Origin: Cyanidioschyzon merolae
Lineage: Eukaryota
DNA length: 64,000 nt
Direction: 5' to 3' (one strand)
Assembly (NCBI GenBank): GCA_000091205.1
Contig: AP006498.2
Both the position numbers and the translations under genes were made by a program. A model generated the notes under the pieces. It was given only the letters and a program-made list of their open reading frames with translations, made no database searches and was not told where the DNA came from. Positions 1-64,000 of this stretch are shown here, one piece after another. How positions within the stretch are numbered: position 1 is the stretch's first letter; each line of letters starts with the position of its first letter.

Positions 1-1391
1 GGAGCGCGTTGCGCACCAGAAAACCATCCGCCACACCCAACTTGCAAAGGTTCCAGTTGGCCTCGGAGTCTCTGGATAGAGCCGGCGCGCTTCAGATACG
101 AACGCACCCTTATGTGACTGCCACCCTAGCATATCACTGCGCGCCGCAAACCAGGAAACCCATCCACCGCCCCCGTCTAGCATCCATCAACGTTGCAAGT
201 GCCAGCGGGCAAGCGCGCCGCACCCATAATCAATTAAGCGGGTGCGCCGCCTGCGCCTGCTGCCCCAGGAAACCCATCGCGCAAATATGCCACCCCGCAG
301 GTCCCGCAAACGCGCACCCGAACGCGCCACCCCGCACGCCTTCCACGAAAGCACCCTCACCTTTCCTTCACCCTGAACTGAGACGGCGCGTCCCACACGC
401 GCACTCTCGCGTCGACATACACGCGCGCTGCCCCCGCAGGGTGTCCATCCGTACATGCGCACACCCGCAGAGACATCCGCGTCGCACCGCACACGTCCCG
501 TGCTGCGCACAGACGCTGCCGTCTCTGGCATGCATGGTGGCGTAGCAGCGCATCCACAGCGCGTGCGGTTATCGGCTGATCCGGCATCGGTGATCGAAGT
601 GTCCATTTATGTCCATCGAGGAACTACTTCATCATTTTCGAACGATATCCAGCGGCCTTGATACCTGGCTGCCAGACACGTGTCCATCGGCAGCCGCGAT
701 CGGCTCGCAGCCTTGTCGCTTGTGGGATGCGTGCATGCCGCCAGGCTCCGTAACGAGCACAAACGCTCCCAGTATGTGGAGCATGCGCATCTGCAATTCG
801 TCGTATGCTTCCTTGTCTGTCTGAATGATCACGGACAAGTGTTCCCGAACAAATCAGTGCCTGGTTGATCTACCATCGATCGGGATGGAGAACCCGCCCG
901 AGAGCCACGGCTGGTGCGCGTCATGCGTACTCGCTCTGCGCTGAGGCGCGTCCAGACACCCCAGTGGCATTGGGACGCGGCGCAGCGATCGTGGCGCGAA
1001 GGCTTGCGTTGTTGTAGCGAGCGCCTTCAGTGTGTCCAGCATCCCGAGATTCATTGGATAGAACTTACCCTCATTGTTCATAAACTGGTCTGGTGTTCGT
1101 CGGACGCCTTCGCGTATGGAGAAGGACGACTGTATCTTCTGCGTCTGCAGAGCGCATTGTCACATTCGAGGGACACTCGTAGCATGCATCCTTCTGAGAT
1201 GAAAAAATTGCATCCTGTCTGCAGCCATACGGATAAAGGTTCGCTTTGGATCACGCTCGTAGGTGTTGTCCTTATCACCATACGGATACAAGTTCGCTGT
1301 ATCATGCGCTCATGAGCGTCTATCTTGTCACTGCATTGATACAGGCTCGCCCTGGTACCTGTTTGCGAGGTGTGGTATTCGGCGTACGTCG

Positions 1392-1422
1392 ACCTGCGCC
1401 TGCGCCTGCGCCTGCGCCTGCC
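1392..1422. repeat. (GCCTGC)n microsatellite, 5 units
   Basis: cctgcgcctgcgcctgcgcctgcgcctgcc read directly. Confidence 0.9.
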
Positions 1423-1706
1423 GTGCCGCCCCGCCGATGACGCCGCCGTCGCTCGAGCGCCGCCCGACGTACGCCGAATCCCACGCTTTTCCGAGCGATC
1501 TCATTTTCTACCTGCACTGCGGTTTCTACTGGAAACTGTGGTAAGTCTGGGATCACAACTGGTTTCGGTCACCAGGGAAAGTGGTAGCGAACGGTCAGTG
1601 TCTCAGGGGTATCCTCCTTTTTGATATTCGGACGACGAGCCACAAGCTTCAAGACTGCAGGTGAGCTGGGGGCAACGCCGCTTCCATTCTGCACCAGGCA
1701 GTCTCG

Positions 1707-4700
1707 TTGGTACTAAGCAGTGTCGGGCGGCTCTTTCTAGAGCTAGGAAACCAGAGTGTCTGGATGGACCGCCGCTGTCTCAGCTTTACAGCTGGTCAAA
1801 ACTTCTTTCCCTGGAGCTCGTTACGCGCCGCCTCCGTCGCGCGTTTCTGGTTGCGGCGGCTTGGTGAAGTACCAGCCGAAGGCGGATCGTTTCCCTATCG
1901 CAGAAGTTTCTTGTGCCCGTTTACCCCTGGATCGAATTTATATAGAGGCTGCGCAAAGTCGCGAGAGAGGCTCGGGCCCTGGCTTTGGCCGACGAACGAA
2001 GCACTCCCGGGGAAACAGCACGCAGGGTTCTGGCGATGGCAGGCTTCGGCAGCGTCTGGAAGCGGTACAGACGGATCAGGTACTTTCGCGGACCCTACAG
2101 TCACCCAGGTACGGAACAAGGATAGTATTTTGGCTCCGGGGACCACGGAAACCGCCCATAGAGAGCCAGAATCCATCGTACCTTCACCACGAGCTGATGG
2201 TGCTTACGACTTTCTCGCTGTGGAACGTCGCTGGCAAGAGTTCTGGGAACGCGAGCAAATATTCCGCACACCAGATGAAGTCGATTGGAACCGGCCTAAG
2301 TACTACATTCTAGACATGTTTCCGTATCCTAGCGGTGCCGGGCTTCACGTCGGGCACCCCGAGGGCTACACCGCGACCGACATTCTCGCACGGTACAAGC
2401 GGATGCGAGGGTATAATGTGCTTCATCCCATGGGTTGGGACGCTTTTGGTCTGCCCGCCGAACAATTTGCTCTCGATACGGGAATTCATCCAGCAGTGGC
2501 GACCGAGCGCAACATCACGCGTTTCCGTAAGCAGCTCAAGTCACTAGGATTCTCCTACGACTGGAAACGCGAGATTAATACGACCAGTCCCGAATATTAT
2601 CGGTGGACACAGTGGATATTCCTTCAGCTGTATAAGAGGGGCCTCGCCTATCAGGCTGAGATACCGGTAAACTGGTGCCCGGCACTCGGCACTGTACTCG
2701 CCAACGAGGAGGTCATCGATGGGCGAAGCGAACGCGGGGGCCATCCCGTCATCCGCAAACCCATGCGTCAATGGGTACTGCGTATCACTGCCTATGCTGA
2801 GAGACTGCTCAAAGATCTCGATCTACTTGACTGGCCCGAAAACGTGAAGGAGATGCAGCGAAACTGGATCGGCCGAAGTGAAGGAGTCGAAGTTACGTTC
2901 CCCACGGTGTCCGATGCTTCGTCGGCATCCGCCAAGGGCGCGCTCGCAGAGCCCCCAGGCATCACCGTTTTCACAACGCGGCCGGAAACCATATCCGGGG
3001 CCACGTACCTGGTCGTTGCTCCCGAATACCCGATTCTAGAGGAGTTGGTAACGGATGCGCAACGAGAGCAAGTCCAGCGCTACGTGGAGCAGGCGCTGCG
3101 ACGCAGCGACCGCGAGCGCACCGGCACTGAGGTCAAGCTGAAGAGCGGCGTCTTCACGGGGCGGTACGCCCAGAACCCTGTTACCGGGGAACACATACCT
3201 ATCTGGGTAGCGGATTACGTTCTCGGCAGCTACGGCACTGGAGCGATCATGGCGGTGCCCGGACACGATGCACGGGATCGAGCGTTTGCGGAAACATTTG
3301 CCTTGCCCATCCGGATTGTCATCGACGAAACGACGAATCAAATGACCGACTGGAACCCAGACTGGCTTGGCGGCCTGGAAGTTGCAGGCACGAACGTGGA
3401 GGCTGCCCGGGTGCGGATCACGGAAGCACTGGAGCGACTTCATATCGGGGAGCGAAAAGTGAACTACAAACTCAGGGATTGGCTGTTTAGTCGCCAGCGG
3501 TACTGGGGCGAGCCCTTCCCGATTGTGTTCGACGCAGAGACCGGCGAGCCGCTGCCCGTAGATGAGCAAGCACTCCCGGTCGAGTTACCTACCACGGAGT
3601 CGATTCGTCCGAGTGGCGATGGACGCTCTCCGCTGGCCAAAATTGTGGACTGGGTGGAAGTTCGTGATCCTCAGACCGGTCAACTGCGTTACCTACGCGA
3701 GACGAATACGATGCCCCAGTGGGCTGGCAGCTGTTGGTACTACTTACGCTTCATCGACAACAGCAACGCGGAGCGGTTGGTTGATCCAGTCAAAGAACGC
3801 TACTGGATGCCGGTTGACCTGTACGTCGGCGGCGTGGAACACGCAGTGCTCCATCTTCTCTATGCGCGCTTTTGGCACAAGGTTCTCTACGATTTGGGGG
3901 TCGTGAGCACTCCCGAGCCCTTCCTACGCCTGGTGAACCAGGGCATGATTCTCGGTGAGGTTGAGTACACGTGTCGTCGTGAACGAACCGCGGCAGAGGG
4001 CCGGCAGCTTGTTGCAAACGGCCACGCTGCCGAGGCACCGCTCCTCGAGGAAGTGCGCGTACCCGCCGATCAAGTCGAGAAAATAGGCAATGATCGCTAC
4101 GTTTTGAAGGCGGATCCTCGTGTAGTGGTAACTGCACGCGCCCATAAGATGTCCAAGTCACGGGGCAACGTGGTCAATCCCGATGATATTGTGGAACAGT
4201 ACGGCGCAGATGCGTTGCGATGCTACCTCATGTTCATGGGACCGCTGGATCAGGTTAAACCCTGGTCGACTCAGGGCGTCAACGGGATGCGGCGCTTCCT
4301 CGATCGCGCTTGGCGTCTGCTCTTCGACAAAAACGAGGTCTGCAACGGAGACTCTCGAACGGAGCATCAGGTGCAGCCGACACGTGCACAGCTGCGTCAG
4401 CTGCACAGCCTCATCAAACGAGTCACCGAGGATACAGAGGCACTTCGTTTTAACACCGCCATCGCAGCGATGATTGAATTTGTGAACGATGCCTACAAAT
4501 GGGAGGTGCCCTGGCCAAAAGATATCTTATTGGGTCCTTTTGTTTTGCTCTTGTCGCCGTATGCGCCTCACGTAGCCGAGGAGATGTGGCAGGAAATTCG
4601 TCGGCGGCAACAGCTTCGCCATGGAACCGAACGAGACTCAGATGCTGCTGATGCCCAGGTGCCGCGTTCATTGGCCTACGAGCCTTGGCCTGACTACGAT

Positions 4701-32588: not shown

Positions 32589-33096
32589 GACCATGTGGGG
32601 TTACATGAATACCCACGCGCAGACGCCTCCCTACGTTCTTTGACGGGCCGCCTGCTATCGGTTTGAGGTTATCGAGGCACATTTCGAGCCTGGGAGGCTG
32701 CCCCTCGAAGTTAGATAGGCGCAGCTCCGCGGATCTCGTTTTCAGCACCACAAATCGTCTGATACTGATGGCGTCGATGAAGACTCTGTTCATGAACTCC
32801 TTGCGTTTATTGCCTCTGGCTGGACTCACCAGTGCAAATACTGCCAGAACGCGTGCCTTTCTTGCCACTACAGTCTTGTGATCTTCCCGTCGGGCAAAAA
32901 TCTTTTCAAGTCGATCTCTCATCGACCTCCTCTTCTTCGTCATTACTAGCTCTTCTTCGCTCGATGGTCGAAGAGAAGATGATTCTCTTCGTTTATTTGC
33001 CCGGAAGCTAGCGATGACGGTGCTCCAGGTTCCCCGACTTCCATGCCCACAACTTTCCCTGGGGTTGTGCATTTCTGAAAATGAACGCACTTCTCT
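32589..33096 (-). mobile_element. Internally deleted (~0.5 kb, MITE-like) derivative A of the TnpB/Fanzor-like element
   Basis: Shares both termini with the full-length element 56691-58958: RE-proximal block accatgtggggttacatg...cagacgcctccc and LE-proximal block ...gaaaatgaacgcacttc. Retains the RuvC-III-encoding segment (KEFMNRVFIDAISIRR) in an open 175-codon ORF (32563-33090) that spans the deletion junction. Confidence 0.6.
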
Positions 33097-33402
33097 ATGC
33101 CCTTAGGTGAGGACCTTCACGGAGTGCGAAGGACTTGCGGAAGAAAGACGACATGTGCTCCGGTGTCACCGTGCGCTGAGCGCTTCAGCGATTCGCCCAG
33201 TGGAACGACCGTTACGTTTTACGATAGAAAACACGCATACGATGCACTTGAGCTATGGATTGTATGGAGGAATGAAAAGATGCTCTGCCCCGATAGAATC
33301 GGCAAGAGCTCGAACGCAAGGGGAATGATGAAATGCCACGTTCTCCAATAGAGGAATGTCGGCAAGTGTCAGGGTAAAGTCTTCAATGATTCGATAAAGT
33401 GG

Positions 33403-33648
33403 GTGCTGTTGTATGAGGGTTACCCACTCGAGAAACTACGGCCGCAAAATGAATCCATTGTAGCTAGAATAGATGATGTCTTAGTTCGCTTCGAGTTCGA
33501 TCGAACATATAGCAGGCTCCTTCTCTGCGAATACCCATATACGTTCCAACCGTTTTATCCGAAGCAAGCCTTATCGATAGAAGAAAACAAGCCGATGTCC
33601 TTGCGGTACATTACCGATCTCGACGTTCCAGGAACGCTGTCGTCGTGA
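33403..33648 (+). CDS. Small hypothetical ORF in a lower-GC island
   Basis: 81-aa ORF (MLLYEGYPLEKLRPQNESIVARIDDVLVRFEFDRTYSRLLLCEYPYTF...) inside an AT-richer ~1-kb stretch (33100-34100) adjacent to derivative A. No homology recognised. Confidence 0.2.
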   Translation: MLLYEGYPLEKLRPQNESIVARIDDVLVRFEFDRTYSRLLLCEYPYTFQPFYPKQALSIEENKPMSLRYITDLDVPGTLSS

Positions 33649-36393: not shown

Positions 36394-38838
36394 GGTTTTG
36401 GGAATGAGCATTGACCATTTGATCATTCCATTTGGATGCTGCTGCGGAAATCAAGCAGTTTCGAACGTACTCGAAGCACTTCCTGATTCGTACTCGTACC
36501 GATAAATTTTGGACCGCCGCTACAAGACGATCGACGCCTTGAGCTCGGATCGCGCTGTTGCGTTGCTTTGCGTGGAAGTATGCAAAGCCGCCGGGATGTT
36601 TCCTGGGGCGAAAAGCGTCTTTATTGGGAACGCGCTAGGTATGCCGTGTGTTGGTCGAAGCATTCGTCGAATCTATTCACCTGTACATCGCAGCATCGCG
36701 CTTTGGTTTCATATTACGGTCTTGGTGCACTTCGGGATTTTCTACCGGGTTACTTTGGGCATGGCATTCTCGTTGACGGTCTGTATATGCAGCATATGGC
36801 ACCTGGTTCCAATTGGACTCGAGGCCCATGGCGAAGGCGCACGGACACATTCCGGAGTATGATGAGGCATCGCCGGTGCACTCAACTGCTGGTGACCTTC
36901 AGGAGGATCCACAGGTGCCCTCATTGAGATGAAAACGTTCGTCGACTTGAAGAACATCATTGAGCAGCGGCGTTTTCCGAATGGTTTCAATCTATGCCAA
37001 CAACTGCAATCGAGACGGTCACTGATTTGAAGCGGTGCCATCGAGGCGACAAGAGCCAAAGACCGCTGGTCGACGGTGCGAATCGATATCCGTGTAGATG
37101 CCGGCAGCGTTCAGCGTCGCCCAAGAGCACCTGCAACCAGACTGACCGGTGTATCCGTTCGGCGGGAGAATTTGCCCGCTTCACTACGACCGGTCAGGTC
37201 GCTGGACGGTAACCTGTGTTCGGTCTATGCTCCCACTGTCGCAGCTGGCAGAATGGGTGCATCTGCGCCCCCTCGGATTGCTGCGGGGCGTCGGCGCTGG
37301 CTTCGTCCATCTTTTGCAGGATATCTGCGGGCGCATCAGGGTGCTTCGCACGTGCGCCGCTCTTTACGGGCAGGCCCAGATGTGGCTTCTCCTGCGCGGT
37401 CTTCTGAGCCATCACGCGTCGATGTGGTCCTTTCCAGCTTACAAGACTGCTTCGTGGATGCGTCTGCAACGCGAGGAAATCCCCGGTTCCCGTTCTGCAC
37501 GACACGTCTCACGACGAACTGAACAAATTGTTCACGCTGGTCAGCGCCGGTAAGCGAACGAACGACTTGGCGCAGGCCTGGTGTCACAGTGCGCTCACTC
37601 CAGAGAATATCCGCGAGTCCGGTCGCAATATCCATCGCCATCAAGTAGTTTCGATTCGCATTCATTGGATCATCGAGATCTTCCGATTCTTGATGGTCCA
37701 GATTCATTGGCCTCGCGGAGCTTTCAGCCACCAAGTCCGTCGTTTGCGCTGCCCTAGGGCAAGCGCTTTGCGAATGACCGCGTTTTACAGCCGAATGTAG
37801 TAGCCCTGAAGCAGGCGAGGGTCTGCTTGGGGAAGGCTCGTGGTTCATCTGGGATTGTCTTCTTGCTTCGTAACTGCCTGAAAGAAAGCTGAGGTCTCGC
37901 TTCACGGCTTTTCCGAGACTCTGGCGCGTAGAAATTTCCAGGGGATTGAAACCACGAAAGAAAGTCTCTGTTCCGTGATACTTGCACCGACGGACAGCGT
38001 GCCGCAGCACGCATGTATGGCGACACGGATGCCACCTGGGACACGTGTACGACCTGGGACGCTGATGCGCACGATGCGCCCTCACTTGAACTGTCCGTGA
38101 CATGCTTGCACGCAATCGCCAGCGCAGATATTGTTCTCTTCAAGGGGTATACTAACTGCATCTGGCAAGGTGTTGCGGATACATGATTGCTGCTGCTGGT
38201 GATCTGGAACGAAACCTCACTTGTTGCGCAGAAGCACCGACTTTTCGCTTGCTTTATACCGGGCTTACCCACGAGACCACAGGCCCGATTGATCTTGCTG
38301 CCCTGCGGGGGTATGGTGTCAGTCGCAGGTGTCGAACGGAGACACGACGCTGTTTTGCTGCTTTGACGGGCGTCGGCTCGATGCGTGCATGACGCGACAC
38401 GCAACATTGACGTGTGCGGGCATCTGCGGCCGTATGGGCGCTTCTTCTTGTACGACTTGCCGTCAGCGCCCTGACTAGGCCTCGGGAACGACCACGGTGC
38501 TCGGATGACCCCGACTACGAGACCATCCGGTGCATCTACTTCACCGCATCTGCTAGGTGATAGACGACAACCTTCGCTCTGGCGCCGTTCCAGTCCAAGG
38601 GCGTCTGCGGGCTGCAAGCCAGTGGATGTATTGGGCGCCAGCGGCGGAATGCGCAACTCGAACGCTATGCTGCCTCCACTGTCGAGAAGGAAATGAGGCA
38701 CCACGTCGCTTGTGCATGCTCACGTGAGTACCGTGAACCATCCAAGAGCCAGAAGACGCGCGCTGGACACGCTGCCAGCACGGAATGCATCACATGATAT
38801 TCAGTAAGGTGATCTGTGAAACGAAAAATGTTCTACGA

Positions 38839-39353
38839 TCATTTAGGGTACATTGATATCCGGCCGCAGATGCCACCCGGCCTTTTTTGACCGGCCGACT
38901 CCTACCGGGTTCATTTTCCCCTTGTACATTTCGACTCTGAGACGCTTCCCCACGATTTTGGATCTCGTCAGCTCCTCGGGTCTCGCCTTCGGCACCACAC
39001 ATCGTCTGATACTGATGGCGGCGTTGAAGTCCCGGTTCACGAACTCCATGCGTTTATTGCCCCGGGTTTAACTCACGAGTGCGAGGATTCATCGAACACG
39101 TGCCCTCAGTGCGACTACAGTCTCTTCTTCGCCTAGTCGGGGAAGCACTTTTTCTCGCGTACCTACCCTCGTTTTCTTCTTCCTGTTCGTCATTTGCTCT
39201 TCTTCGCTCGATAGTCGTCAAGCAGGGCATTTTTCGTTTCGCTTTTGTCGAACCCGGCGATGGCGGGCCTCCAGGATACCCCGGCTACCATATCCATAAC
39301 TTTTCCGTAGATTTTTTAAAAGTAAGCACACTTCGAACCTGTCAGCTATACAC
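38839..39353 (-). mobile_element. Internally deleted (~0.5 kb) derivative B of the TnpB/Fanzor-like element
   Basis: RE-proximal block catttagggtacattg...gcagatgccaccc and LE-proximal block ...ccatatccataacttttcc...cagctatacac. Encodes MEFVNRDFNAAISIRRCVVPKARPEELTRSK (RuvC-III motif; ORF 38843-39049). A TGA lies at the position where the full-length copy has GGA. Confidence 0.6.
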
Positions 39354-41189
39354 CGCGAAGAAGCACTTGATGACACGCACCTGGCAGAGGAACGCAATAC
39401 GGGCGAAGGACGATGATCACGGCTGTGCAACTGTGCTTGCTTGGTGCACTTCTGTGTGCACTGGGAGCGTTTGCGAGACCAGAGGACAAGCGTTGAACCC
39501 GTCGATTCTACTCCGGCAAAACAACCAGCACATGTGTTCCGAATCATCGGATTCCGTTCGTGGCTACCGAGTTATTCTGCGCGATGTTCGGGCGGCTGGA
39601 GCGACTAGACGACATCGCCTTTTGCTGGGTGTCTGCTTCCAGCATGGAGCATCCCGGGGCTCAACGTACCGTTCAGCGAATAGATGCGCGCGCCGCAGAG
39701 CTTCCATATGCTACTGGTGACTCGGCAGTTGCGTGACGATGCTTTAATGCTTCAAAGATCCGTATCTTGCATGCCGACTCGCATCTATTGTCGCTGAATG
39801 GTCCAGCGAAGAGGACGTAGCGAACAGGTCCCTCAGCATCGACAAATTCGACTTCGCACAGTGCGGAGTATTTCTCAGTGCTGAACTTTGTCCCTGGTGC
39901 TGCTGTTATCGACTGGACGACCATAATTTCCTCCGCCCGAGGGCGACGCAGCATTAGAAATCCTTTTTCCATGCCCAGACCAGAACAAATAGCGAAATCG
40001 ACACTTGTCAGCGTTTCAGGCGCATGAACCTGCATGGGTCTTACTCGCTTTCAAAGCGGTTTCATTGAAATCTAGAACGCCATTGCTGGAGTAATGCCAG
40101 CCGAATTATTTGAAGAAAAAAAGAAACCCCGCGCAAGCAAAGCTTTCTCTTCGCTAGAACTGGTCGGGAAAGAGACGTGACACGCGGTGCGAAACCAGGA
40201 AACACTTTTTGATGATGTAATCATTGGTGCAGTTGTCCCGTCTCCTCAAATGATGGTGCGACCTCCGACCTTCGAAAGCTCAGAAGCGCCGGACAGTCTC
40301 TAATTCATTGCCCGATTCAGTTCACCTATCGATCAGGAGTGTTCCACTGCTCCAAAGCATTCGGCCCGAACGGCACTCGACGGATGCAGCCGTTGCTTAA
40401 GAACTTGAGTGCGCCGAACTGGACGATACGTTGCTCCACCCGCGTCACTTGAAAAGGCACACTGAACTGCTCGGTCACTTCGCGCTCCACGATCTTTCCC
40501 GAACTTTTTTTTATTGATGCACAACCTCGATGTTCGAAGTGCGGCAATATGGGGCTGAGGATCCGTACGTAGCCTTAGCATTCTCGGTCGTCTTTTTGGA
40601 GTGGCTTCTTCGGCTCTACGCCGCTCAATTTCGTTCTGTCATCGATTCCAAGGTGTTTCGGGATGCAGTCGACCAAAAGGTTCATGACATGACCGACGCC
40701 ATCATCGAATCCATAGGTACAAGCCTCCATTCTTCTCCTCTTGCATACGTTGATCATGCGCAAATCACGCATTCTTCACGTTTTCAACCCGTGTGTCTCA
40801 AGGCAAGTCGTGAATGCAGCGATTCGTGCCTCTGGGTTGATGACGAGAAATACTCGACGTCATTGCTTGACAACTTCATCTCAAGCTCATGAAGAAACTT
40901 CACTGGACTTGTCACGTCACGTAATCGATTCCGTTCGAAAGACAACTACGCATCTCTTTGTGTCCATTGACCGCATAACACGCGAAGCCGGACTGATACT
41001 TCTCGCTGTATATGTCCCGAGACGCTCCCGACTCTTCTGTCTGTATGGAAAGGGGTCTTGGACTCGGATTCTCGTCATTGCAGCGATCGCGTCTATTAGG
41101 ACGTGTGTAACCAGGTTGCACGAAGAGATCGTAAACGGATCAGGAGTTCTCGACTTGATTTTCGCACTGGATTTTCCATTTACTACTTG

Positions 41190-53446: not shown

Positions 53447-54003
53447 GACTTTTGGCTCGGCTTCCGCTGACATGGACAAAGGCGTGTGCGCGCTTCTCCT
53501 CTGCCGGCATCGTTTTTCTCTCTGGTACCTCTGCCTGGGAAGATGTCGATCTCGCGTGCCGCTCGAGCTTCGTTGTCGGCAACTGAAGAATGCTCATGAC
53601 AGCGTTCAAGTTCCGGTTACGCAGCTTCCGGCGCTTGCAGATGCATATCATGCACACACAAAAGCTGCTCCCTACGCTCCGCTTGTCGTTTTGCACCCGC
53701 TTTGCATGCGGCCTCGGTGCACATTTCGCGGCAGCGACAGCTTGCTGTGGTCGGATCTTCGCGTGTGGCCACCAGAGCACCTCCTCAACGCCTTTCTCGA
53801 TTTTTCAGCACCAGGTGCCGTATCCTAAGACCACGGGCTTCCTCGGGGACGATCACTTTGGTTCGTACGCTTTCTGCGGCACGCGCAAGTGCACGCTCTT
53901 CGATACGATAGAGGGTGTGTAGAACGCGATATTGTCCATGATGAAACGAGGACTCGAAGGAAAAGCAAGGCTCGAGCAAAACTCGGGAAACTTCGACCCG
54001 TGT
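53447..54003. repeat. 555-bp direct repeat, copy 1 (~99% identical to 61887-62446)
   Basis: Alignment by eye starts at ggctcggcttccgctgacatggacaaaggcgtgtgcgc and ends at ...ctcgggaaacttcga(c/t)ccgtgta, with only a few mismatches. Lies in the S18-GET3 intergenic region. Encoded peptides are unrecognisable. Confidence 0.6.
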
Positions 54004-54756
54004 AGTCCCAGTTCATCGCAACCGCGCTGCACGAACCGCGAAACTCGACGCTGTCCACCCAAGCCCATAATCAATAGCGAGAACGAGTTGCACCAAATCA
54101 GTTTCGCACGCACACACTATTCTCGCAGCAGCTACGCTGCGTGTAGCGATAGGTGCAGCACCTGCTCTGTGATGCAGGTACTTGCACGGAGACCTGCGGC
54201 AGCGTGCACTAGAGCGCCCTTTCCAATCGCGTTACCCATTGCCCATGACGCTTTACCCATTGCGTGATATGCTTTACAGGTTGCGTTCAACGTCTAACGC
54301 GAGGTGCGGCCTCGTGCCTGCTTCCGCGCTGGGTGCTGCGCGCGCGCGCGCGCGTTTCGGCGCTGCAGCGGCATGGCAGGCCGCGGCGCGTCAACACGTT
54401 GCGCGACTCGAAGCTGCGTTCTGCTCAGGGCGCTCACGCTGTGTACTCCTGCAAGCGGATGCCGTGTGAGATGAAATCTAGCACTACTGGATTTTGCTTC
54501 ACTTGTGCGGGTAATGGACGTTGGGAAGGCACGTTCTACGGTAGCCGTGAGCCTGTCTCCAAAGTGTGGCACTGTGGGAGCGGTGCTGGGTGTCCACGCC
54601 ACTCGATGCGCCTTCCAGGGGCGCAAGCGTCACGCCGCGCACTCCGTTAAGCAGATGATCGTGGCCAGTGGCTGGTCATGAAGAAACCGTCGTCGACCAA
54701 GGTAACGGTGCCGTCCACGTGCCGGAGGCAGCAGCACTCGGCAGCGCGAGGAGCGA

Positions 54757-56289
54757 GTGGTACGCAGCGAGCAAGCGCTGGCGCCGCAGTCTACGATACC
54801 GCGTTGGCGCTCGCAGGCGAATCGCATCGGTCAGGGTCTTGTTGTGTTCCTAGCTGTGAGTTATGTGCTTGAGAAGGCGGTTCCACTGATGCAGTGGCTG
54901 GTGATGCGTCCCAAGAACAAGGTCGGTTCTAGAGCCGGCGTTACTGCGACGAACGTCGGGGCTACTGCTCCAGCTCCGGCTGCAGCTCCGGGAGCCTCTG
55001 GTCTGGACGCAATGGCACGCACCGGCGCTTCTAGTTCGAGCAGCGTTCAGAGGCAGTCATCCTGGACACCACCCGCGACTGCGCAGTGGTCGTCAGCCGT
55101 TGATCTTGTTGAACAGCGCACGAGTCGAAAGATCACGATTATCGGCGGCAAAGGCGGCGTCGGCAAGTCGACCATGGCTGCCGCCACCGCGGTACGGTTT
55201 GCGGACCAAGGTGAGACAACGCTGATTATCAGTACTGACCCTGCACATTCGTTGTCGGATTCCTTCGATCAGGATGTAAGTGGCGGTGCCCCGGTTCCAG
55301 TGCTTGCTGTGGACAACCTCTATGCCATGGAGATCAACCCTGAGCAGATGAAAACGTCTTTGAGAATGCTTCCGGATTCCGAGAAGCTTCAGATGATGAG
55401 CGGTATGGATATGGGCCTGGAAGACTTTGATTCATTGTTCGAGACGCTACCGCCAGGTTTCGATGAAGCGATCGCCCTCGTTGAAATCATGAAACTGATC
55501 CAGGGCGATCCGGCTTTTGCCAAGTTTGATCGGATCGTCATCGATACCGCGCCAACTGGACATACGCTCCGCCTCTTATCGCTGCCGGACTTTTTGGACT
55601 CGTTTCTCGGCAAGATCTTGACCATGAAGAACAAGCTCGGCAACGTTATGAACCAGTTTAAGGGCATGTTCAGTGGAGGCAATGATCAGCAAACCTTGGA
55701 TTCCGCCGATATAGATGAGCTCAAACGGAGCATGAACATGGTTCGCGCTCTGCTGCGCGATCCAAACCAGACAGAGTTTATCGTGGCAACCATCCCGACC
55801 ATGATGAGCGTGGCCGAAAGCGAACGCCTGGTGAAGGATCTCTCCCGGGAAAAGATTCCCTGTCGCCATATTTTTGTGAATATGGTACAGCCGCCAAATG
55901 ATTCATGCAGTTTCTGCAAAGCCCGTCGACGCGAACATGAGACCAATTACAAGTACATCGAACGCGTATTCCGAGACTTTAAGGTTGTTCCGGTCAAGTA
56001 TTTTGAACGCGAAGTGCGGGGCGCCCCAGCTCTTCGGGCGATGGCTTCGCAGTTGTTTGCAGATGACTCGTCTTCGGAACCGGGAACCGCAGCATCAACC
56101 GAGGACACATCGCGCCAAACGACAGAGACGCCTACGATTGCGCCACGCGCGGCCACAGAAGCAAAAGGCGAGCAAGTTGGTGGACGCGGGAACGGCGCAG
56201 GTGCGCACCATATCGCTGCATCGGGTGAGTCTGCGAACAACAACGCGCCGGCAGCGAATACCGCCACACAGCGAAGCTCAGAGCAATGA
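54757..56289 (+). CDS. GET3: GET3/ArsA-family ATPase (tail-anchored protein insertion ATPase) with N-terminal extension
   Basis: Deviant Walker A GGKGGVGKSTMAAATAVRFADQG followed by ISTDPAHSLSDSF. Switch II/A-loop DTAPTGHTLRLLSLPDFL. GET3-type CxxC pair CSFCKAR. Listed start is GTG; first ATG at 54889. Hydrophobic N-terminal segment and Ala/Gln-rich C-terminal tail. Confidence 0.8.
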   Translation: MVRSEQALAPQSTIPRWRSQANRIGQGLVVFLAVSYVLEKAVPLMQWLVMRPKNKVGSRAGVTATNVGATAPAPAAAPGASGLDAMARTGASSSSSVQRQSSWTPPATAQWSSAVDLVEQRTSRKITIIGGKGGVGKSTMAAATAVRFADQGETTLIISTDPAHSLSDSFDQDVSGGAPVPVLAVDNLYAMEINPEQMKTSLRMLPDSEKLQMMSGMDMGLEDFDSLFETLPPGFDEAIALVEIMKLIQGDPAFAKFDRIVIDTAPTGHTLRLLSLPDFLDSFLGKILTMKNKLGNVMNQFKGMFSGGNDQQTLDSADIDELKRSMNMVRALLRDPNQTEFIVATIPTMMSVAESERLVKDLSREKIPCRHIFVNMVQPPNDSCSFCKARRREHETNYKYIERVFRDFKVVPVKYFEREVRGAPALRAMASQLFADDSSSEPGTAASTEDTSRQTTETPTIAPRAATEAKGEQVGGRGNGAGAHHIAASGESANNNAPAANTATQRSSEQ

Positions 56290-56690
56290 TTGCACCGGAG
56301 GCAGTAGCTGCTCGCGGGGGTCAGGACGTACCTGCTGTTCAAAGCGCCTGGCTACCGACGCGCACTATTTGCTTTCGATTATCATAGAGCGGTGCAACGA
56401 TGGCGCTGCTGCGCTCGCTGCGTGGCAATTATTTCCGTTTCTCTCATGTGCCGTGTAGCTTTCGGATGTGCCTCACGTAAGCGCTTCTACGTTGCGAGCT
56501 AAACGTTCTTCATGCTTTGTGGATCAAAGAATTGGCCCATACTCGCCAAAATTCGCTCACAAAGGGGTTGGCTTTTCGGAGCGTTGCCTGCACGTGATCA
56601 GAGCTCGTGCACCGAATGGACATCATTGATCTCTCGGGCGTCGTGGCTATTTCATTTCCATCAGTAGACGTGGAGCGAAAACTTTTCGCG

Positions 56691-56950
56691 ACCATGTAGG
56701 GTACATGGATACCGACGTGCAGACGCCTCCCGGCGTTTTTGGATAGGCCCCCAGTTATCGATTTCAGTTTCTACGTGTACACTTCAACATCTAGAGGCTG
56801 CCCTACGAATTTAGATCGCGTCAGCTCCTCGGGTCTGTTCTCCAGGATCGCAAATCTCCTGATATGGATTGCGGCGTTGAAGTCTCGGTTCACGAACTCC
56901 ATGCGTTTCTTGCTGCTTCATGAACTCATCAATGCAAGGAGTCCTCGGAC
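56691..56950 (-). ncRNA. Candidate omega-RNA (guide RNA scaffold) region at the 3'/right end of the TnpB/Fanzor-like element (inferred, not demonstrated)
   Basis: This ~250-bp RE-proximal block is the part conserved at nucleotide level in all four copies (56.7, 32.6, 38.8, 63.2 kb) and is retained by the deletion derivatives. It overlaps the 3' end of the nuclease ORF and ends in a terminal hairpin, as expected for TnpB/Fanzor omega RNAs by analogy. Confidence 0.3.
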
Positions 56951-58896
56951 TCGTGCCCTGCGTTCCATTTCCTGTTCTGTCAGCTCTCCGCGGTTTTCGA
57001 TTTCCTCAACACGCCGCTGTATGTTCTCCATCTCGACCTTCTGAAGTGTACACCCCAGTTCGTGGTGCACACACGCGATGTTCGGAACTCACCTATCGGT
57101 TTTGTGATATAACGCTGTGCACACTCCTTGTACGCTCATGTCGTTGGAGCGGGTATGCACCCTTTTATGGACGCCCAGCGCCCTGCTCCGTTGCCAACTA
57201 CGAGCCTGTGACTCTCGACCTCCTTCAAGGCGCTCAACTCATGGAAAATATCGGTGAATGCCCGCTGCTTCCCACAGTATAGATTCATACGCCGACGAGC
57301 CCACCTGGGCTTAATATATTCTTTCCACAGCGCATCCCAATGAGCAGCTTGAGTTTTCATGAATTCCCGAAAAGCTTCAAGGTTCGCTCCACGGCTCGTA
57401 ACCTGGCTGATCGCTTCCAGGTGCTCATTCATTCCTGCATTCCATGCCTCAATGTTCTTCCTTGCATTCATTATTCCCGACTCTCGGTAGTATCTCGCTC
57501 TCGCGAACCGCAAAAGACGCATATCTTTCTGACGTAAGTTACCGTCAATGCCATCTTCCGTACGCTTGGGTACTGCGATGGATACGATTTTCGTCTTTCC
57601 AGGGTCCGCGCTGACGACAGTGTCGTTCTCCTGCACCTCCTGCGTGGCAGGATCCGCCTCTTTGTTTTCTGCATCCTTCGTCACGGGCGAAGCGGAGGAC
57701 GGAACAAGACGATCCGCCTTCAAGCGCCGATAGTACACACACGTTGATACTTCATCGCTTTCGATGATCCCTGTGAATACTTTTTTCTTGCGCATTTTGA
57801 GACGATTGAAGTCGAAGATATTCTTCCAGTATGTCTCCCGGTTTTCACCCATGAACTCCTTCCTGTTTACATCGACCTCTGGACTGATCTCCTTTATGAT
57901 GCCGTAAAAGACTCTGTAGTCGATCGTCACAAAATGCGACTAGGCGTCGCGTGCCGGAACGACATCGAAGCACTCCTCCAGAAGCGCAGCCTTCGGTTTC
58001 AACGACTCGTCATTTTTTCCCACACCCAACTCCATCTCCGCCTTGCGTTCGAATTCTCGATTCAGGAATACGAAATAATGCAGGATGAGGGGATGACATC
58101 TTTTTTCATCTTGTCTCATATCTGATAGCTTATCTGCTGGATTGACCAGCCCAAAAACCGCACGATGCTCTTGAGTAGCCGCACGGATCCGATAAGCTTC
58201 ATTCGTGCTCTCTTTCGACGCCCTCTTCTCGGTGGAATCGATCTCCTGTTCATGATGGCAATCTTTCGTGATGCCATTGAGGATGGCCCGTATCGATTCG
58301 CGAGAAGGATCCGGGCAGAGTGCAAACATGGAGCGCATCATGAGGCGTTTCAGGTTCAAGGTCGAATGGTTCTTCGGGTTCTTGATGTACGTCATCGCCC
58401 CGTGGCCGTAAATATCCGCGCCACCGCCGTATCTAGTGCAGTTGAAGCGGTATTCGACGTAGTTTTCTTGGACGGCGTGCACTCGCTCATTTCTTCTCGA
58501 CGCCTCCCCTGTGCCATGCATCGGGTGACGAGTAAAGGTCTTGTTCGAAAATTCTTCCCGAACCTCGACTCTTCCCATGTGCGTCACGTCGCGACGCATC
58601 TCCTTTTCGAAAGCATCAGCCCTGACGAGTGCGTTATAAGAATACTCAAGGAGTACGACTCGACACGGTTTCTGATAGCCTCTCGCAAATTTCACCTGTA
58701 GGGATGCTAAATTTCGCGTAGAAGACAGGCTTTCACATTTATCTCGTCGTACTGTCGTCTTTCGTGGAGCTTTTGACGTCGGGCCTCCTGCTTCTACTTC
58801 TTGGTCAGCTCCTGTTCCTCTAAACTCGGTTTTGTTTTTCGTTTTCTTTTTCTCGGTAGCCCGCGACTCCTGCCCTCCAGGATCCTCAACTTGCAT
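56771..58896 (-). pseudogene. TnpB/Fanzor-like nuclease ORF interrupted by three in-frame stop codons (TAG 57940-57942, TGA 57136-57138, TGA 56917-56919), no frameshifts
   Basis: Track ORFs 57940-58896 and 57136-57930 and the short terminal ORF (atg at 56901) are all in one frame. The listed M of 57136-57930 is actually GTG (V) in the continuous frame. Stops are consistent with CAG->TAG, CGA/TGG->TGA transitions. Copy A (32563-33090) reads through the position of the last stop. Confidence 0.55.
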
Positions 58897-59772
58897 TCCT
58901 GTAGCTTTACTTATTTATTTTTGAAAACGAACGCATTTCGAATACGTCGGCTGTAAACTAAGATACAGCACTTGAATGCACTAATTTGAGGGTTGGAACA
59001 GAATTCGATTGAAAGACTCTACGATGACGTCAACGCAAACACAACCTATAAGTTAGATCAACCAGCTGATGATTAGGATCGTGTTTCGCTTCGACGGCGA
59101 GTTGCGCGTCATATCTCAATGGTGGCAGATATGGAGGTGCGCGTATCTGCCGCGCTGTAGAAAAAGAGGAACAGGAACGAACCATTAACGAGCTACGGGA
59201 TCACGATCTCTATCCGCCTTCACGGTAAGCGTTGAAAGAGGAAAAGCGTTCCGCATTTTCGAAAGTCTGCTACCTGGGCGTAAAGTCCCGCGAGCCGGAC
59301 GATTCTGCAAGATTTGGGCTTGATTCGCCTCCCAGTGGCGGGTACGATAGTGAGATCTGAGTCGCTCGTCCGAACGCAGCTCATTCTGAGGCTAGAAGTG
59401 GGTAGAATGCGCCTGGGCGTCGCCCTGGTTGCGGTTGTATCCCATCCCATGGGTTCGCACTGCCGTAGGCAGCACGTCTGCTTACACAGATTACAGGACC
59501 CGAAAATGGTTACATACTCGGACTCCGTATGAGGTGAAGCGTGCGTCGAGCCGATGCCTTCAGGGCTGTGGCAAAGCCGTTCTGTCTCCGTGTTGCATCC
59601 GCTCCAGCGGTTTAGGCGCTATTGCAGACGCTTGCGGCAGATGTTCAGCACAAGATCGACCGTATAAGGCGCCCAGTATATCCGAGAAGCAGTATGGGTT
59701 ATGGAACTTGGAGGAAACGCGTGAAATGATGGATGCTTCCGCGCGCGTTGATACCAAGCGCCCAGTCCGGGC

Positions 59773-60756
59773 ATGCTGGCATATGGACACGTTTTGTCGA
59801 CTTTGAAGTCGGACCATACCTGTATAAAATGGACATCATGGATCTCAAGGGCGGCGTCGCCGTTTACTGCGACCGCCTCTTTGCGATCCGTCACCGTTTC
59901 GTTTCCATCTCCGTGCAGAGCAGCACTGTTCGCGAACATGGCAGGGATTGGATCAGGGTTCGTTCCGACGTATACGTTACGTAGCGCTCGTGGCAGTTTC
60001 GGCGAAACAAAGTCTTTATCGCAACCGGCGAGAACCCGGGGACACCAGCGGTTAACTTTCGTGTCGAACGCGCGCCGGCGTTGCCAACTGGTCGCGAGTG
60101 CAGCCGAGGAGCGCCCGGAACGATCTCAAACGCAGAGCGAAATAGACTTTGCGAAACTTCAATTTTCGGAAGGTAATGAGTTGAGTGGTATGGTGTTCAA
60201 ACCGGATGCGGAATTAGCAAAGGCTGGGCCCGATGAGTCCCGTGCGCGACTCGCATACTCGAATGCATGCGAGGAGGCGATTAACAGCCAGATTAACGTG
60301 GAGTTCACCGCCTTTTACGTATACTATGCTTTGCACGCATACTTTGATCGGGATACGGTCGCGCTCCCAGGTTTTGCGGACTATTTCCGAAAGCAAGCGG
60401 AGGAGGAACGCGACCACGCTGTGAAACTCATGCACTATCAAAACAAACGCGGTGGGCGCGTTCACCTGAAGCCGATCGCGGTTCCAGCATTGCACTTCCA
60501 TAACGAGGAGAACTCGGATGCGATTTATGCAATGGAACTTGCGTTGCAACTTGAGAAATACGTGCAAATGAAGCTCATGGAAGTTTGGAAAGTGGCTGAT
60601 CGCGAGCGCGATGCGAATATGACGGATTTTATCGAGGATTTCCTCGACATGCAAGTCGAATCGATCAAAGAGATTTCAGATTATGTTGCTCAGTTGAAAC
60701 GTGTTGGAACTGGTCATGGCGTGTATCACTTTGATCGAGTGCTCGCTGACAAGTGA
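59773..60756 (+). CDS. Ferritin (plant/algal type) with long N-terminal extension (transit + extension peptide?)
   Basis: Ferritin core [59 protein letters not shown]...[53 protein letters not shown] at 59773; alternative ATG (MAGIGSGF) ~54 codons downstream. Stop TGA. Confidence 0.85.
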
Positions 60757-61886: not shown

Positions 61887-62446
61887 ATATAGTTCGGCTC
61901 GGCTTCCGCTGACATGGACAAAGGCGTGTGCGCGCTTCTCCTCTGCCGGCATCGTTTTTCTCTCTGGTACCTCTGCCTGGGAAGATGTCGATCTCGCGTG
62001 CCGCTCGAGCTTCGTTGTCGGCAACTGAAGAATGCTCATGACAGCGTTCAAGTTCCGGTTACGCAGCTTCCGGCGCTTGCAGATGCATATCATGCACACA
62101 CAAAAGCTGCTCCCTACGCTTCGCTTGTCGTTTTGCACCCGCTTTGCATGCGGCCTCGGTGCACATTTCGCGGCAGCGACAGCTTGCTGTGGTCGGATCT
62201 TCGCGTGTGGCCACCAGAGCACCTCCTCAACGCCTTTCTCGATTTTTCAGCACCAGGTGCCGTATCCCAAGACCACGGGCTTCCTCGGGGACGATCACTT
62301 TGGTTCGTACGCTTTCTGCGGCACGCGCAAGTGCACGCTCTTCGATACGATAGAGGGTGTGTAGAACGCGATATTGTCCATGATGAAACGAGGACTCGAA
62401 GGAAAAGCAAGGCTCGAGCAAAACTCGGGAAACTTCGATCCGTGTA
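61887..62446. repeat. 555-bp direct repeat, copy 2 (~99% identical to 53447-54003)
   Basis: See copy 1. Located ~1.1 kb downstream of the ferritin gene and ~0.75 kb before derivative D. Confidence 0.6.
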
Positions 62447-63195: not shown

Positions 63196-63720
63196 GGAAG
63201 GTAAGTATCAACAGCCTCGCGCAGGCGCCTCCCAACCTTTCTTTTACCGTCCCTCTACCATCCGGTTCAGTTTATCCCAGCACGCATCGACTCTGAGGGA
63301 CTGCTCCACAAAGTCGTATCGTCTCAGCTCATCTGGTCTCGTCTTCAGCACCACACATCCCCTGGTATTGATGACGGCATTGAAGCCCCGGCCCATGAAC
63401 GCCATGCGTTCATTGCCTTCGGTGGAACTCACTATTGCAAGGATTCCTCGGCCTCGTGCCCTCAGTGCGATTAGAGTCCCGTCATCGTCTCGTCATGCGA
63501 ACACCTTTTCTCGGATATCTCCCCTCCTTTCTCTTCTTCTTCATCATCATCACTTGCTCTTCTTCGCTCGAAAGTCTGCGACAATAGGATTTTTATCGTT
63601 CGGTTTGCCGCGCACCCCGCGGTTAGAGGCCCTCAGGATCCTCGACTTCCATATCCATACCTTTCCCTAACATTTTCTATTTCTTCAAATGAACGCATTT
63701 CGAATACACCTGCTATAAAC
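63196..63720 (-). mobile_element. Internally deleted (~0.5 kb) derivative D of the TnpB/Fanzor-like element
   Basis: RE block ...gcgcaggcgcctccc and LE block ...ccatatccatacctttccc...gaacgcatttcgaatacacctgctataaac, nearly identical to the full-length LE. Encodes MAFMGRGFNAVINTRGCVVLKTRPDEL (degenerate RuvC-III; ORF 63244-63432). Confidence 0.55.
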
Positions 63721-64000
63721 CGCGAAAAAGTATATGGCGATACGCACCTGGAGATGGAATACAATGCAAGTGAGCGACTGTAGGATCATTGCCATCGGGG
63801 CGTGATGAATGATTGGCATCGCAGGCAAGTGTCTCGGCCACGTGCCGCGCGGCTGTGCAGCCGCTGCTGACAAGTGTTCCGACTACGACAGCGTTTTGTG
63901 TAACCGAGTCTGGGCAAACTGTCTCTAAGTTCACGGAGCCATGTCTTCTTTGCCAAGCCAGGCAGGTTCTGGTGGTTCTGGAGGCGATCCTGGTGAGAGG

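What the first reader, a model, noticed from the sequence alone, without database searches (positions are those of the whole stretch)
56691..58958. Eukaryotic TnpB/Fanzor-like RNA-guided-nuclease-type transposon (full-length copy)
A 2.27-kb element (lower GC than surrounding DNA) is occupied almost end to end by one minus-strand reading frame of ~708 codons, with motifs as detailed in the 56691-58958 feature.
- The C-terminus carries MEFVNRDFNAAIHIRR, matching the RuvC-III signature DxNAAxNIxRRG of TnpB/Cas12/Fanzor nucleases.
- It is preceded by a TnpB-style ...YKE...GEFRTSRVC..C zinc-finger remnant.
- A DPG-type RuvC-I candidate (VVSADPGKTKIVSIAV) lies ~180 codons upstream.

The element has no terminal inverted repeats but has hairpin-forming palindromes at both ends, in the IS200/IS605 style. 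Three short derivatives share its termini. Its size (~700 aa) fits Fanzor1-type proteins rather than bacterial TnpB.

If it is a Fanzor-like element, its 3' end should encode an omega RNA that uses flanking sequence as guide. That would make this a candidate programmable RNA-guided endonuclease system in this eukaryote's genome. I cannot tell from sequence alone whether this family has been described.
Basis: partly seen in the sequence, partly recalled or inferred. Interest (0 to 1): 0.85.

Follow-up and report, generated by a model that had tools for sequence, protein, structure and literature searches.

The report
Dead copy of known Fanzor1 transposon

Summary
The window is Cyanidioschyzon merolae 10D: two flanking genes match its annotated proteins exactly. 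A profile of its protein family hits solved Fanzor1 structures (E = 4.5e-23 to 1.3e-11). The family's conserved D, E and D fall on the catalytic D383, E541 and D606 of SpuFz1. A confident model of an intact relative has the Fanzor1 fold.

It is not new. Window 59798..56711 (minus strand) aligns to positions 5-3092 of CMe-1A at 79.5% identity. CMe-1A is the 3169-bp Fanzor1 element that Bao & Jurka (2013) described in this same genome, with about 150 copies each about 80% identical to the consensus.

The element is about 3.13 kb (56670-59798), not 2.27 kb. The copy is dead: against the consensus frame it has seven stop codons and three frameshifts.

The "zinc-finger remnant" is not decay. The whole clade lacks the C4 finger. 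No terminal inverted repeats, no target-site duplication and no TnpA were found. An omega RNA at the 3' end is plausible but not shown.

The three short derivatives are real. Interest is low.

The parts
56670..59798 (-). Complete extent of this copy of the CMe-1A Fanzor1 transposon (~3.13 kb)
   Evidence: Window 59798..56711 aligns to CMe-1A consensus positions 5..3092 at 79.5% identity over 3042 columns. The 3' tail 56710-56670 is a subfamily variant shared with the short derivatives.
59168..59798 (-). 5' non-coding module, equivalent to TE-N2_CMe (CMe-1A nt 5-635)
   Evidence: Alignment to the consensus. Bao & Jurka state that the 5' 635 bp of CMe-1A equals TE-N2_CMe. The coordinate 59168 is approximate.
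56771..58896 (-). Degenerate Fanzor1 (CMe-1) coding region: 7 stops and 3 frameshifts relative to the 734-aa consensus
   Evidence: ORF list and translations. tblastn of the CMe-1 consensus protein gives 61% identity over residues 4-607 and 70% over residues 609-728 in another frame. Lesion map. The family HMM hits 57139-57939 at E = 6.4e-73.
57598..57606 (-). RuvC-I motif DPG (catalytic Asp codon 57606-57604)
   Evidence: Invariant D in the 85-sequence family alignment. The HMM alignment places it on SpuFz1 D383.
57076..57093 (-). RuvC-II motif GEFRTS (alternative catalytic Glu codon 57090-57088; the family has DEFRTS), followed directly by the +2 frameshift at 57077-57076
   Evidence: Invariant E in the family, aligned to SpuFz1 E541. 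Frameshift.
56867..56890 (-). RuvC-III motif NRDFNAAI (catalytic Asp codon 56884-56882)
   Evidence: Nearly invariant RDxNAAxNI in the family, aligned to SpuFz1 D606.
56670..56960 (-). 3' terminal ~290 nt retained in all three short derivatives; candidate omega-RNA scaffold region (inferred, not shown)
   Evidence: Shared with the derivatives at 72-75% identity. No Rfam match. Folding z-score only -1.36. Covariation in the equivalent region of 40 other copies is not above controls.
56675..56708 (-). Two terminal hairpins: CCATGTA-CCC-TACATGG (56708-56692) and GCGAAAAGTTTTCGC (56689-56675)
   Evidence: Sequence. Folding of 56665-56730 gives -20.5 kcal/mol, z = -2.0. Other subfamilies have different tails that also end in a hairpin.
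32589..33093 (-). Short internally deleted derivative d1, directly downstream of a DDE_3 transposase remnant (33104-33952)
   Evidence: DDE_3 tblastn.
38816..39398 (-). Short internally deleted derivative d2
63207..63765 (-). Short internally deleted derivative d3

Best explanation
Window 56670-59798 (minus strand) is an old, inactivated copy of CMe-1A. CMe-1A is the Fanzor1-encoding DNA transposon of Cyanidioschyzon merolae 10D described by Bao & Jurka in 2013. This copy sits in the intergenic space between the arsA/GET3-type ATPase gene and the chloroplast ferritin gene.

Inferred from characterised Fanzor1 proteins, not shown here: when intact, the 734-aa CMe-1 protein is a Fanzor1 RuvC nuclease with a DPG Asp, an alternative Glu in DEFRT and an Asp in NRDxNAA. 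It would bind an omega RNA transcribed from the 3' end of the element. The last nucleotides of that RNA read into flanking DNA and serve as guide. The complex would cut matching DNA next to a short target-adjacent motif, which helps the element persist and spread.

This copy cannot make the protein. The ~0.5-kb derivatives keep the promoter and ORF-start region fused to the 3' ~290 nt. That is what one would expect if the 3' region carries the cis-acting or RNA function.
For: Genome identity:
- Window 59938-60756 equals ferritin BAM81845.1 and window 54889-56289 equals the arsenite ATPase BAM81844.1 of C. merolae 10D, exact matches.

Family identity:
- 79.5% identity to the CMe-1A consensus over nt 5-3092. 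This matches the published description of ~150 copies, each ~80% identical to a ~3-kb consensus without TIRs.
- tblastn with the 734-aa CMe-1 consensus protein hits the element.

Fanzor1 membership of the family:
- The 85-sequence profile hits PpFz1 9cf0 (E = 4.5e-23), SpuFz1 8gkh (1.9e-17) and GtFz1 9cer (1.3e-11). Family D/E/D align to SpuFz1 D383/E541/D606.
- An AlphaFold model of the intact relative P0043 (42% identical to CMe-1; pLDDT 88, pTM 0.86) matches SpuFz1, PpFz1 and GtFz1 at E = 8e-19 to 2e-16, TM 0.52-0.72. Cas12 and Fanzor2 follow.
- 13 of 72 members hit Pfam Cas12f1-like_TNB.

Decay:
- Lesions are mapped.
- Of ~90 related copies sampled from metagenomes, none has a complete ORF.
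- No annotated NCBI protein appeared among the 44 close homologues.

Multi-copy:
- 375 related stretches were found in metagenome contigs.
Against: - RNA-guided activity has never been shown for this family.
- No omega RNA was demonstrated: no Rfam hit, unremarkable folding energy, and no covariation above controls.
- The clade lacks the C4 zinc finger that the original Fanzor definition includes.
- The transposase that moved CMe-1A is unknown. No TIRs, no detectable TSD and no transposase gene lie inside the element.
Confidence: 0.93

Rival explanations
1. The locus is an intact or nearly intact programmable Fanzor system that could be used as found.
For: All three catalytic residues are still encoded, and the element is full length in extent.
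Against: There are seven stops and three frameshifts relative to the ancestral frame, and D->G next to the catalytic Glu. No gene is annotated between BAM81844 and BAM81845.
Confidence: 0.02
2. The element is an IS200/IS605-style single-strand transposon, moved by a Y1 HUH TnpA that recognises subterminal hairpins.
For: No TIRs were found. Short hairpins occur at the 3' terminus in every subfamily, although the sequences differ. The flank 5' of the element is T-rich.
Against: No TnpA or other HUH gene is in or beside the element. Hairpin z-scores are only about -2. Fanzor1 elements are known to ride on many eukaryotic transposon superfamilies, and IS200/IS605 is not named among those listed in the passages read. 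Bao & Jurka left CMe-1A unclassified.
Confidence: 0.08
3. CMe-1-type Fanzor units are passengers of Tc1/mariner (DDE_3) transposons. CMe-1A copies were mobilised, or originally delivered, by such a transposase.
For: - The intact relative P0043 lies directly downstream of a 401-aa DDE_3 transposase, inside a 3643-bp multi-copy unit with imperfect TIRs.
- Derivative d1 lies directly downstream of a DDE_3 remnant at 33104-33952.
- Two further DDE_3 + Fanzor-like remnants lie at 10642-12285 and 18221-20560.
- Mariner-borne Fanzor1 elements are documented.
Against: This copy and the CMe-1A consensus contain no DDE_3 sequence and no TIRs. No TA or other TSD is detectable. Metagenome copies carry at least four unrelated 5' modules.
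Confidence: 0.2
4. The reading frame is a decayed host gene or a chance ORF, not a mobile element.
For: None beyond its intergenic position.
Against: There are four related copies in this window alone, 375 related stretches in metagenome contigs, and a published consensus built from ~150 copies.
Confidence: 0.01

Closest known systems
CMe-1A element / CMe-1 Fanzor1 protein of Cyanidioschyzon merolae (Bao & Jurka 2013, Mob DNA 4:12; PMC3627910, Additional files 2 and 3)
   Same: Same genome and same family. The copy is 79.5% identical to the 3169-bp consensus over nt 5-3092 and has the same ORF position and orientation. The 5' 635 bp equals TE-N2_CMe. There are no TIRs and the TSD is undeterminable.
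   Different: This copy carries a different last ~40 nt (56710-56670) from the consensus tail. The ~0.5-kb derivatives share that variant tail. It is a pseudogene, whereas the consensus ORF is open.
SpuFz1, PpFz1, GtFz1 (experimentally characterised Fanzor1 nucleases; PDB 8GKH, 9CF0, 9CER; Saito et al. 2023, Xu et al. 2024)
   Same: Same fold (TM 0.52-0.72 for the relative P0043). Same DPG / alternative-Glu / RD catalytic arrangement, aligned residue for residue to SpuFz1 D383/E541/D606. Same size class. Transposon-borne.
   Different: Only 11-15% sequence identity. The CMe-1 clade has no CxxC...CxxC zinc finger in the TNB/NUC region. No omega RNA, TAM or cleavage activity is known for it.
PUl-1 and other Mariner-borne Fanzor1 elements (Bao & Jurka 2013)
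   Same: The metagenomic relative (L003:734-4376) and three remnants in this window have the same order: a Tc1/mariner DDE transposase followed by Fanzor1.
   Different: The CMe-1A copy under study has no transposase, no TIRs and no TA duplication.
Bacterial TnpB of IS200/IS605 (e.g. ISDra2) and its omega RNA
   Same: Homologous RuvC nuclease core. The gene is placed at the 3' end of the element, with the ORF ending a few tens of nt before the element's end. This is the geometry in which TnpB's omega RNA overlaps the ORF 3' end.
   Different: No TnpA. The protein is about twice the size. The glutamate is at the alternative position. DPG replaces D-hydrophobic-G. Single-sequence and shallow-profile searches find no TnpB or Pfam hit.

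Membership tests
CMe-1A (C. merolae Fanzor1 transposon family) | Nucleotide similarity to the published 3169-bp consensus over most of its length | tested here: met
   79.5% identity, consensus nt 5-3092 = window 59798-56711.
CMe-1A (C. merolae Fanzor1 transposon family) | Host genome is Cyanidioschyzon merolae | tested here: met
   Exact matches of two flanking proteins to BAM81844.1 and BAM81845.1 of strain 10D.
CMe-1A (C. merolae Fanzor1 transposon family) | Consensus 3' terminus (...GCAGCGTTTTTCTTTTGAAAGGCG) | tested here: not met
   This copy diverges after consensus nt 3092 and carries a different hairpin tail shared with the short derivatives. It is a subfamily variant.
Fanzor1 | RuvC-I Asp in a DPG motif | tested here: met
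   ADPGK at 57609-57595. Invariant D/G in the 85-sequence alignment. Aligned to SpuFz1 D383. The DPG signature is as defined by Yoon et al. 2023.
Fanzor1 | RuvC-II Glu at the alternative position (in D-E-[FY]-[RK]-T-[ST], just before the zinc-finger position) | tested here: met
   GEFRTS at 57093-57076. Invariant E, aligned to SpuFz1 E541.
Fanzor1 | RuvC-III Asp in an RD motif near the C-terminus | tested here: met
   NRDFNAAIHI at 56890-56861, aligned to SpuFz1 D606.
Fanzor1 | C4 zinc finger (OrfB_Zn_ribbon / TNB) between RuvC-II and RuvC-III | tested here: not met
   No CxxC pair in this copy, in the CMe-1 consensus, or in 71 of 72 diverse clade members. 13 of 72 members still score on Pfam PF07282. 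Yoon et al. say 'many', not all, Fanzors have the finger.
Fanzor1 | Significant sequence or fold similarity to experimentally characterised Fanzor1 | tested here: met
   Profile against PDB: E = 4.5e-23, 1.9e-17 and 1.3e-11. Foldseek with the P0043 model: E = 8e-19, TM 0.62/0.72 to SpuFz1. The family HMM hits the window copy at E = 6.4e-73.
Fanzor1 | Omega RNA encoded at the 3' end, with the guide read from flanking DNA | tested here: inconclusive
   The 3' ~290 nt are retained in the derivatives. Against that: no Rfam hit, z = -1.36, and covariation not above shuffles (85.3% against 84.4% paired; 6 against 4.4 double-change pairs). Neutrally decaying transposon copies are a poor substrate for this test.
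Fanzor1 | RNA-guided, TAM-dependent DNA cleavage | not testable with these tools
   Requires biochemistry. Not reported for CMe-1 in the literature searched.
Fanzor1 | Intact open reading frame in this copy | tested here: not met
   7 stops and 3 frameshifts against the consensus frame.
IS200/IS605-type element | Y1 HUH TnpA transposase, or demonstrable dependence on one | tested here: not met
   No other ORF with a Pfam hit lies in the element. The only coding content is the Fanzor frame.
IS200/IS605-type element | Subterminal imperfect hairpins at both ends, and no TIR or TSD | tested here: inconclusive
   No TIR and no TSD. The 3' hairpins have z about -2. The true 5' end (59740-59805) gives z = -0.98.
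Tc1/mariner transposon | DDE_3 transposase, TIRs, TA duplication | tested here: not met
   None of the three is present in this copy. They are present in the related element L003:734-4376.

The most novel reading that the evidence does not exclude
The ~0.5-kb derivatives consist of the Fanzor promoter and ORF start fused to the last ~290 nt. There are three in this window and more in the metagenome loci. They could be omega-RNA-only satellite elements that use Fanzor1 protein supplied in trans, a eukaryotic counterpart of bacterial omega-RNA/PATE-like loci.

In addition, the CMe-1 clade would be a zinc-finger-less Fanzor1 lineage that is still RNA-guided. The profile search found more than 2000 relatives, present in red and green algae. 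A consensus-resurrected enzyme from this thermo-acidophile could then be a heat-tolerant editor.
Probability: 0.2. Interest if true: 0.45.

Novelty: already known. Interest (0 to 1): 0.15.

Why it matters
It matters little as a discovery. The family, its host genome, its copy number and its kinship to TnpB were published in 2013. The RNA-guided nuclease activity of Fanzor1 proteins was shown in 2023.

The check has three uses. It corrects the element's boundaries and coding state. It also records that this Fanzor1 clade lacks the zinc finger and has never been tested biochemically.

Anyone wanting a Fanzor from a 42-45 °C (my own knowledge of the organism), acid-adapted eukaryote would have to resurrect the consensus. 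No copy seen here is usable as it stands.

Tried and rejected
- Single-sequence Pfam and PDB searches with the stop-masked translation found nothing.
- A profile of 14 close homologues also found nothing in the PDB. Only the deep profile built after the 1.84-billion-protein search worked.
- The first AlphaFold run, with 44 close sequences, gave an unusable model (pLDDT 48). The run with 85 diverse sequences gave pLDDT 88.
- RNAalifold over the last 446 alignment columns of 40 copies gave -7.5 kcal/mol and almost no covariation.
- A sub-alignment of the last 107 nt folded to -26 kcal/mol. Its pairs did not exceed shuffled or slid controls. I treat this as uninformative, not as evidence against an omega RNA.
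- Rfam found nothing in 56400-60000.
- A TSD search on 15 copies with both ends gave a best match of 8.1 nt, against 7.6 +/- 1.2 in mismatched controls.
- I considered that the T-rich stretch before the 5' end is an antisense poly(A) tail, implying retroposition. I dropped the idea for lack of TSDs.
- I looked for C. merolae in the supplements of Saito 2023 and Jiang 2023. The first gave no occurrences and the second has no supplementary files held as text.
- A 12-bp perfect long-range inverted repeat (56775-56786 / 57042-57053) is not conserved in the family consensus. I set it aside as chance or subfamily-specific.
Full report
**What is in the sequence**

These are VVSADPGKTKIV...AYKECAQRYITKPIGEFRTSRVC and MEFVNRDFNAAIHIRR. 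GC content is 0.506 for 56691-58958, against 0.553 for the window.

It is not one frame with three stops. The ORFs ending at 57940 and 57136 share a frame, but the ORFs ending at 56918 and 56771 are in another frame. Homologues read DEFRTSYTHHELGC where this copy reads GEFRTSRVC|HHELGC.

Three short relatives in the same orientation lie at 32589-33093, 38816-39398 and 63207-63765. They share the 3' ~290 nt (56670-56959) and ~90-140 nt around the ORF start.

**Which genome**

Window 59938-60756 is identical to ferritin BAM81845.1. Window 54889-56289 is identical to the arsenite-translocating ATPase BAM81844.1. Both are from Cyanidioschyzon merolae 10D, on a 908-kb chromosome (Pfam support). The feature lies between these two consecutively numbered genes.

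**Is it a Fanzor?**

- The stop-masked translation alone hits nothing in Pfam or the PDB.
- It has 44 close homologues, all from JGI metagenomes and none carrying a functional name (the only labels given are 'hypothetical protein'). Some carry the precomputed Pfam tag PF26935/DUF8286.
- A profile of close homologues still missed the PDB.
- A profile search of 1.84 billion representative proteins found 2201 relatives at E <= 1e-3, mostly 600-700 aa.
- A profile of 85 diverse full-length members hits the solved Fanzor1 proteins: PpFz1 9cf0 (E = 4.5e-23), SpuFz1 8gkh (1.9e-17) and GtFz1 9cer (1.3e-11).

In that alignment the family's invariant D (DPG), invariant E (DEFRT) and near-invariant D (NRDxNAA) fall on chain positions 777, 935 and 1000 of the MBP fusion. 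These correspond to SpuFz1 D383, E541 and D606, the residues that coordinate the two Mg2+ ions. DPG and the repositioned glutamate are the Fanzor signatures defined by Yoon et al. 2023.

Further support:
- 13 of 72 members individually hit Pfam Cas12f1-like_TNB, best E = 2.1e-08.
- The family HMM hits the window copy at E = 6.4e-73 for 57139-57939 and E = 1.5e-24 for 57955-58611.
- An AlphaFold model of the intact relative P0043 (699 aa, 42% identical to the CMe-1 consensus) was poor with a shallow alignment (pLDDT 48). It was good with the deep one (pLDDT 88.3, pTM 0.86).
- Foldseek against the PDB returns SpuFz1 (E = 8e-19, TM 0.62/0.72), PpFz1 and GtFz1. Cas12o, Cas12b, Cas12f and Fanzor2 follow.

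The interpretation 'Fanzor1-type' stands.

**It is a published family**

Bao & Jurka (2013, PMC3627910) list one Fanzor1 family in C. merolae. They describe CMe-1A as having ~150 copies, each ~80% identical to a ~3-kb consensus. They found no TIRs and could not determine the TSD. Its 5' 635 bp equals another repeat, TE-N2_CMe.

I took the 3169-bp consensus from their Additional file 2. Window 59798..56711 aligns to consensus nt 5..3092 at 79.5% identity. The consensus ORF (nt 906-3110, 734 aa) matches the window by tblastn in two frames.

No later paper in the held library links Fanzor or TnpB with Cyanidioschyzon beyond passing mentions. The supplements of Saito et al. 2023 do not mention the species.

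**Corrected anatomy**

The element is ~3.13 kb, spanning 56670-59798.

At the 3' side this copy departs from the consensus after nt 3092. It carries a different tail: the hairpin CCATGTA-CCC-TACATGG at 56708-56692, then GCGAAAAGTTTTCGC at 56689-56675, ending near 56670. The derivatives share this tail.

**Coding state**

Against the consensus frame there are frameshifts of +1 near 58853, -1 near 58612 and +2 at 57077-57076. There are stops starting at 58796, 58709, 58694, 57942, 57138, 56920 and 56773.

The apparently open 318-codon N-terminal ORF is open partly by accident. About 80 of its codons are out of the ancestral frame. The Asp before the catalytic Glu is mutated (VDEFRT -> IGEFRT).

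Among ~90 related copies in the fetched loci, none has a complete ORF. The best cover residues 53-699 and 133-731.

**Zinc finger**

The stretch between DEFRT and NRD has no CxxC...CxxC in this copy or in the consensus. The same is true of 71 of 72 diverse clade members. The cysteine in 'RVC' is produced by the frameshift.

**Ends and mobility**

- No terminal inverted repeats are present.
- Terminal hairpins are modest, with z = -2.0 and -2.5. The true 5' end gives z = -0.98.
- In metagenome copies the 3' part is constant. The sequence upstream of consensus nt ~648-690 falls into several unrelated modules.
- The 3' tails fall into at least three variants, each ending in a short hairpin.
- The 10 nt before the consensus 5' end are T-rich in the 15 copies that have both ends. 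The 3' junction reads GGCG|TTTGTT in most copies.
- No TSD is detectable: 8.1 nt against 7.6 +/- 1.2 in controls. This agrees with the 2013 paper.
- There is no TnpA, so the IS200/IS605 analogy rests only on weak hairpins.

Relatives do associate with Tc1/mariner transposases:
- P0043 sits directly downstream of a 401-aa DDE_3 protein, in a 3643-bp multi-copy unit with imperfect TIRs.
- Derivative d1 abuts a DDE_3 remnant.
- Two more DDE_3 + Fanzor-like remnants lie at 10642-12285 and 18221-20560.

**Omega RNA**

The geometry fits. The ORF ends 59 nt before the consensus 3' end, and the last ~290 nt are what the derivatives retain. The evidence is negative or uninformative:
- no Rfam family matches;
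- folding of 56665-56960 gives z = -1.36;
- a consensus fold of the last 107 nt of 40 copies (-26 kcal/mol) shows no covariation above shuffled or slid controls.

Because transposon copies decay neutrally after insertion, this test has little power. The omega RNA remains an inference from the characterised Fanzor1 systems.

**Verdict**

The finding is a real feature and its kind was identified correctly. It is a dead copy of a family described in this very genome in 2013, so it is already known and of low interest.

The points that go beyond the 2013 description are minor:
- the zinc-finger-less character of the whole clade;
- the 0.5-kb derivatives with a variant 3' tail;
- the variable 5' modules;
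- a second, mariner-linked Fanzor-like family in the window.

Noticed in passing
window 10642-12285 and 18221-20560 (+ strand): Two decayed elements with the order DDE_3 (Tc1/mariner) transposase remnant, then a very divergent Fanzor1-like remnant (27-33% identical to CMe-1). The transposase parts are 98.7% identical over 928 bp, but the Fanzor parts only ~67%. This suggests chimeric elements or gene conversion. Bao & Jurka list only one Fanzor1 family for C. merolae.
   Followed up: partly
window 33104-33952 (- strand), next to derivative d1 at 32589-33093: A third DDE_3 transposase remnant lies directly upstream of a short CMe-1 derivative. The gene order is the same as in the intact metagenomic element L003:734-4376.
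   Followed up: partly
window 53451-54004 and 61893-62446: A 554-bp direct repeat, 99.3% identical and 8442 bp apart, brackets the arsA gene, the CMe-1A copy and the ferritin gene. The same arrangement appears in metagenome contigs L010-L012. Its nature is unknown.
   Followed up: partly
alignment A8 (72 clade representatives); window 57070-56900: The whole CMe-1 clade lacks the C4 zinc finger between RuvC-II and RuvC-III (71 of 72 members). The original Fanzor motif definition includes it.
   Followed up: yes
loci L001, L013, L016, L026 and others; CMe-1A nt 2117-2196 (window ~57690-57610): A ~78-nt (26-aa) unit just upstream of the DPG motif, approximately KHEEKKEA..ATQEVQDNDFVV, is tandemly repeated one to four times in different copies. 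The window copy has one unit.
   Followed up: no
loci L008/L009, L014, L046, L058, L072: Pairs of CMe-1 copies sit head to head, about 15-24 bp apart. One is full length from consensus nt 1 and the other starts at nt 660 or 740. This may be nested insertion or a preferred target.
   Followed up: no
5' and 3' junctions of CMe-1A copies in loci L008-L089: The 5' flank is T-rich and often preceded by GCG. The 3' junction reads GGCG|TTTGTT, and the 3' flanks fall into a few recurring classes. No TSD was found. This could be a target or TAM-like preference, or unrecognised terminal sequence.
   Followed up: partly
protein P0063: One member of the same zinc-finger-less Fanzor1 clade is an annotated 'hypothetical protein' of the green alga Tetrabaena socialis (PNH08370.1). 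The clade therefore spans red and green algae.
   Followed up: no
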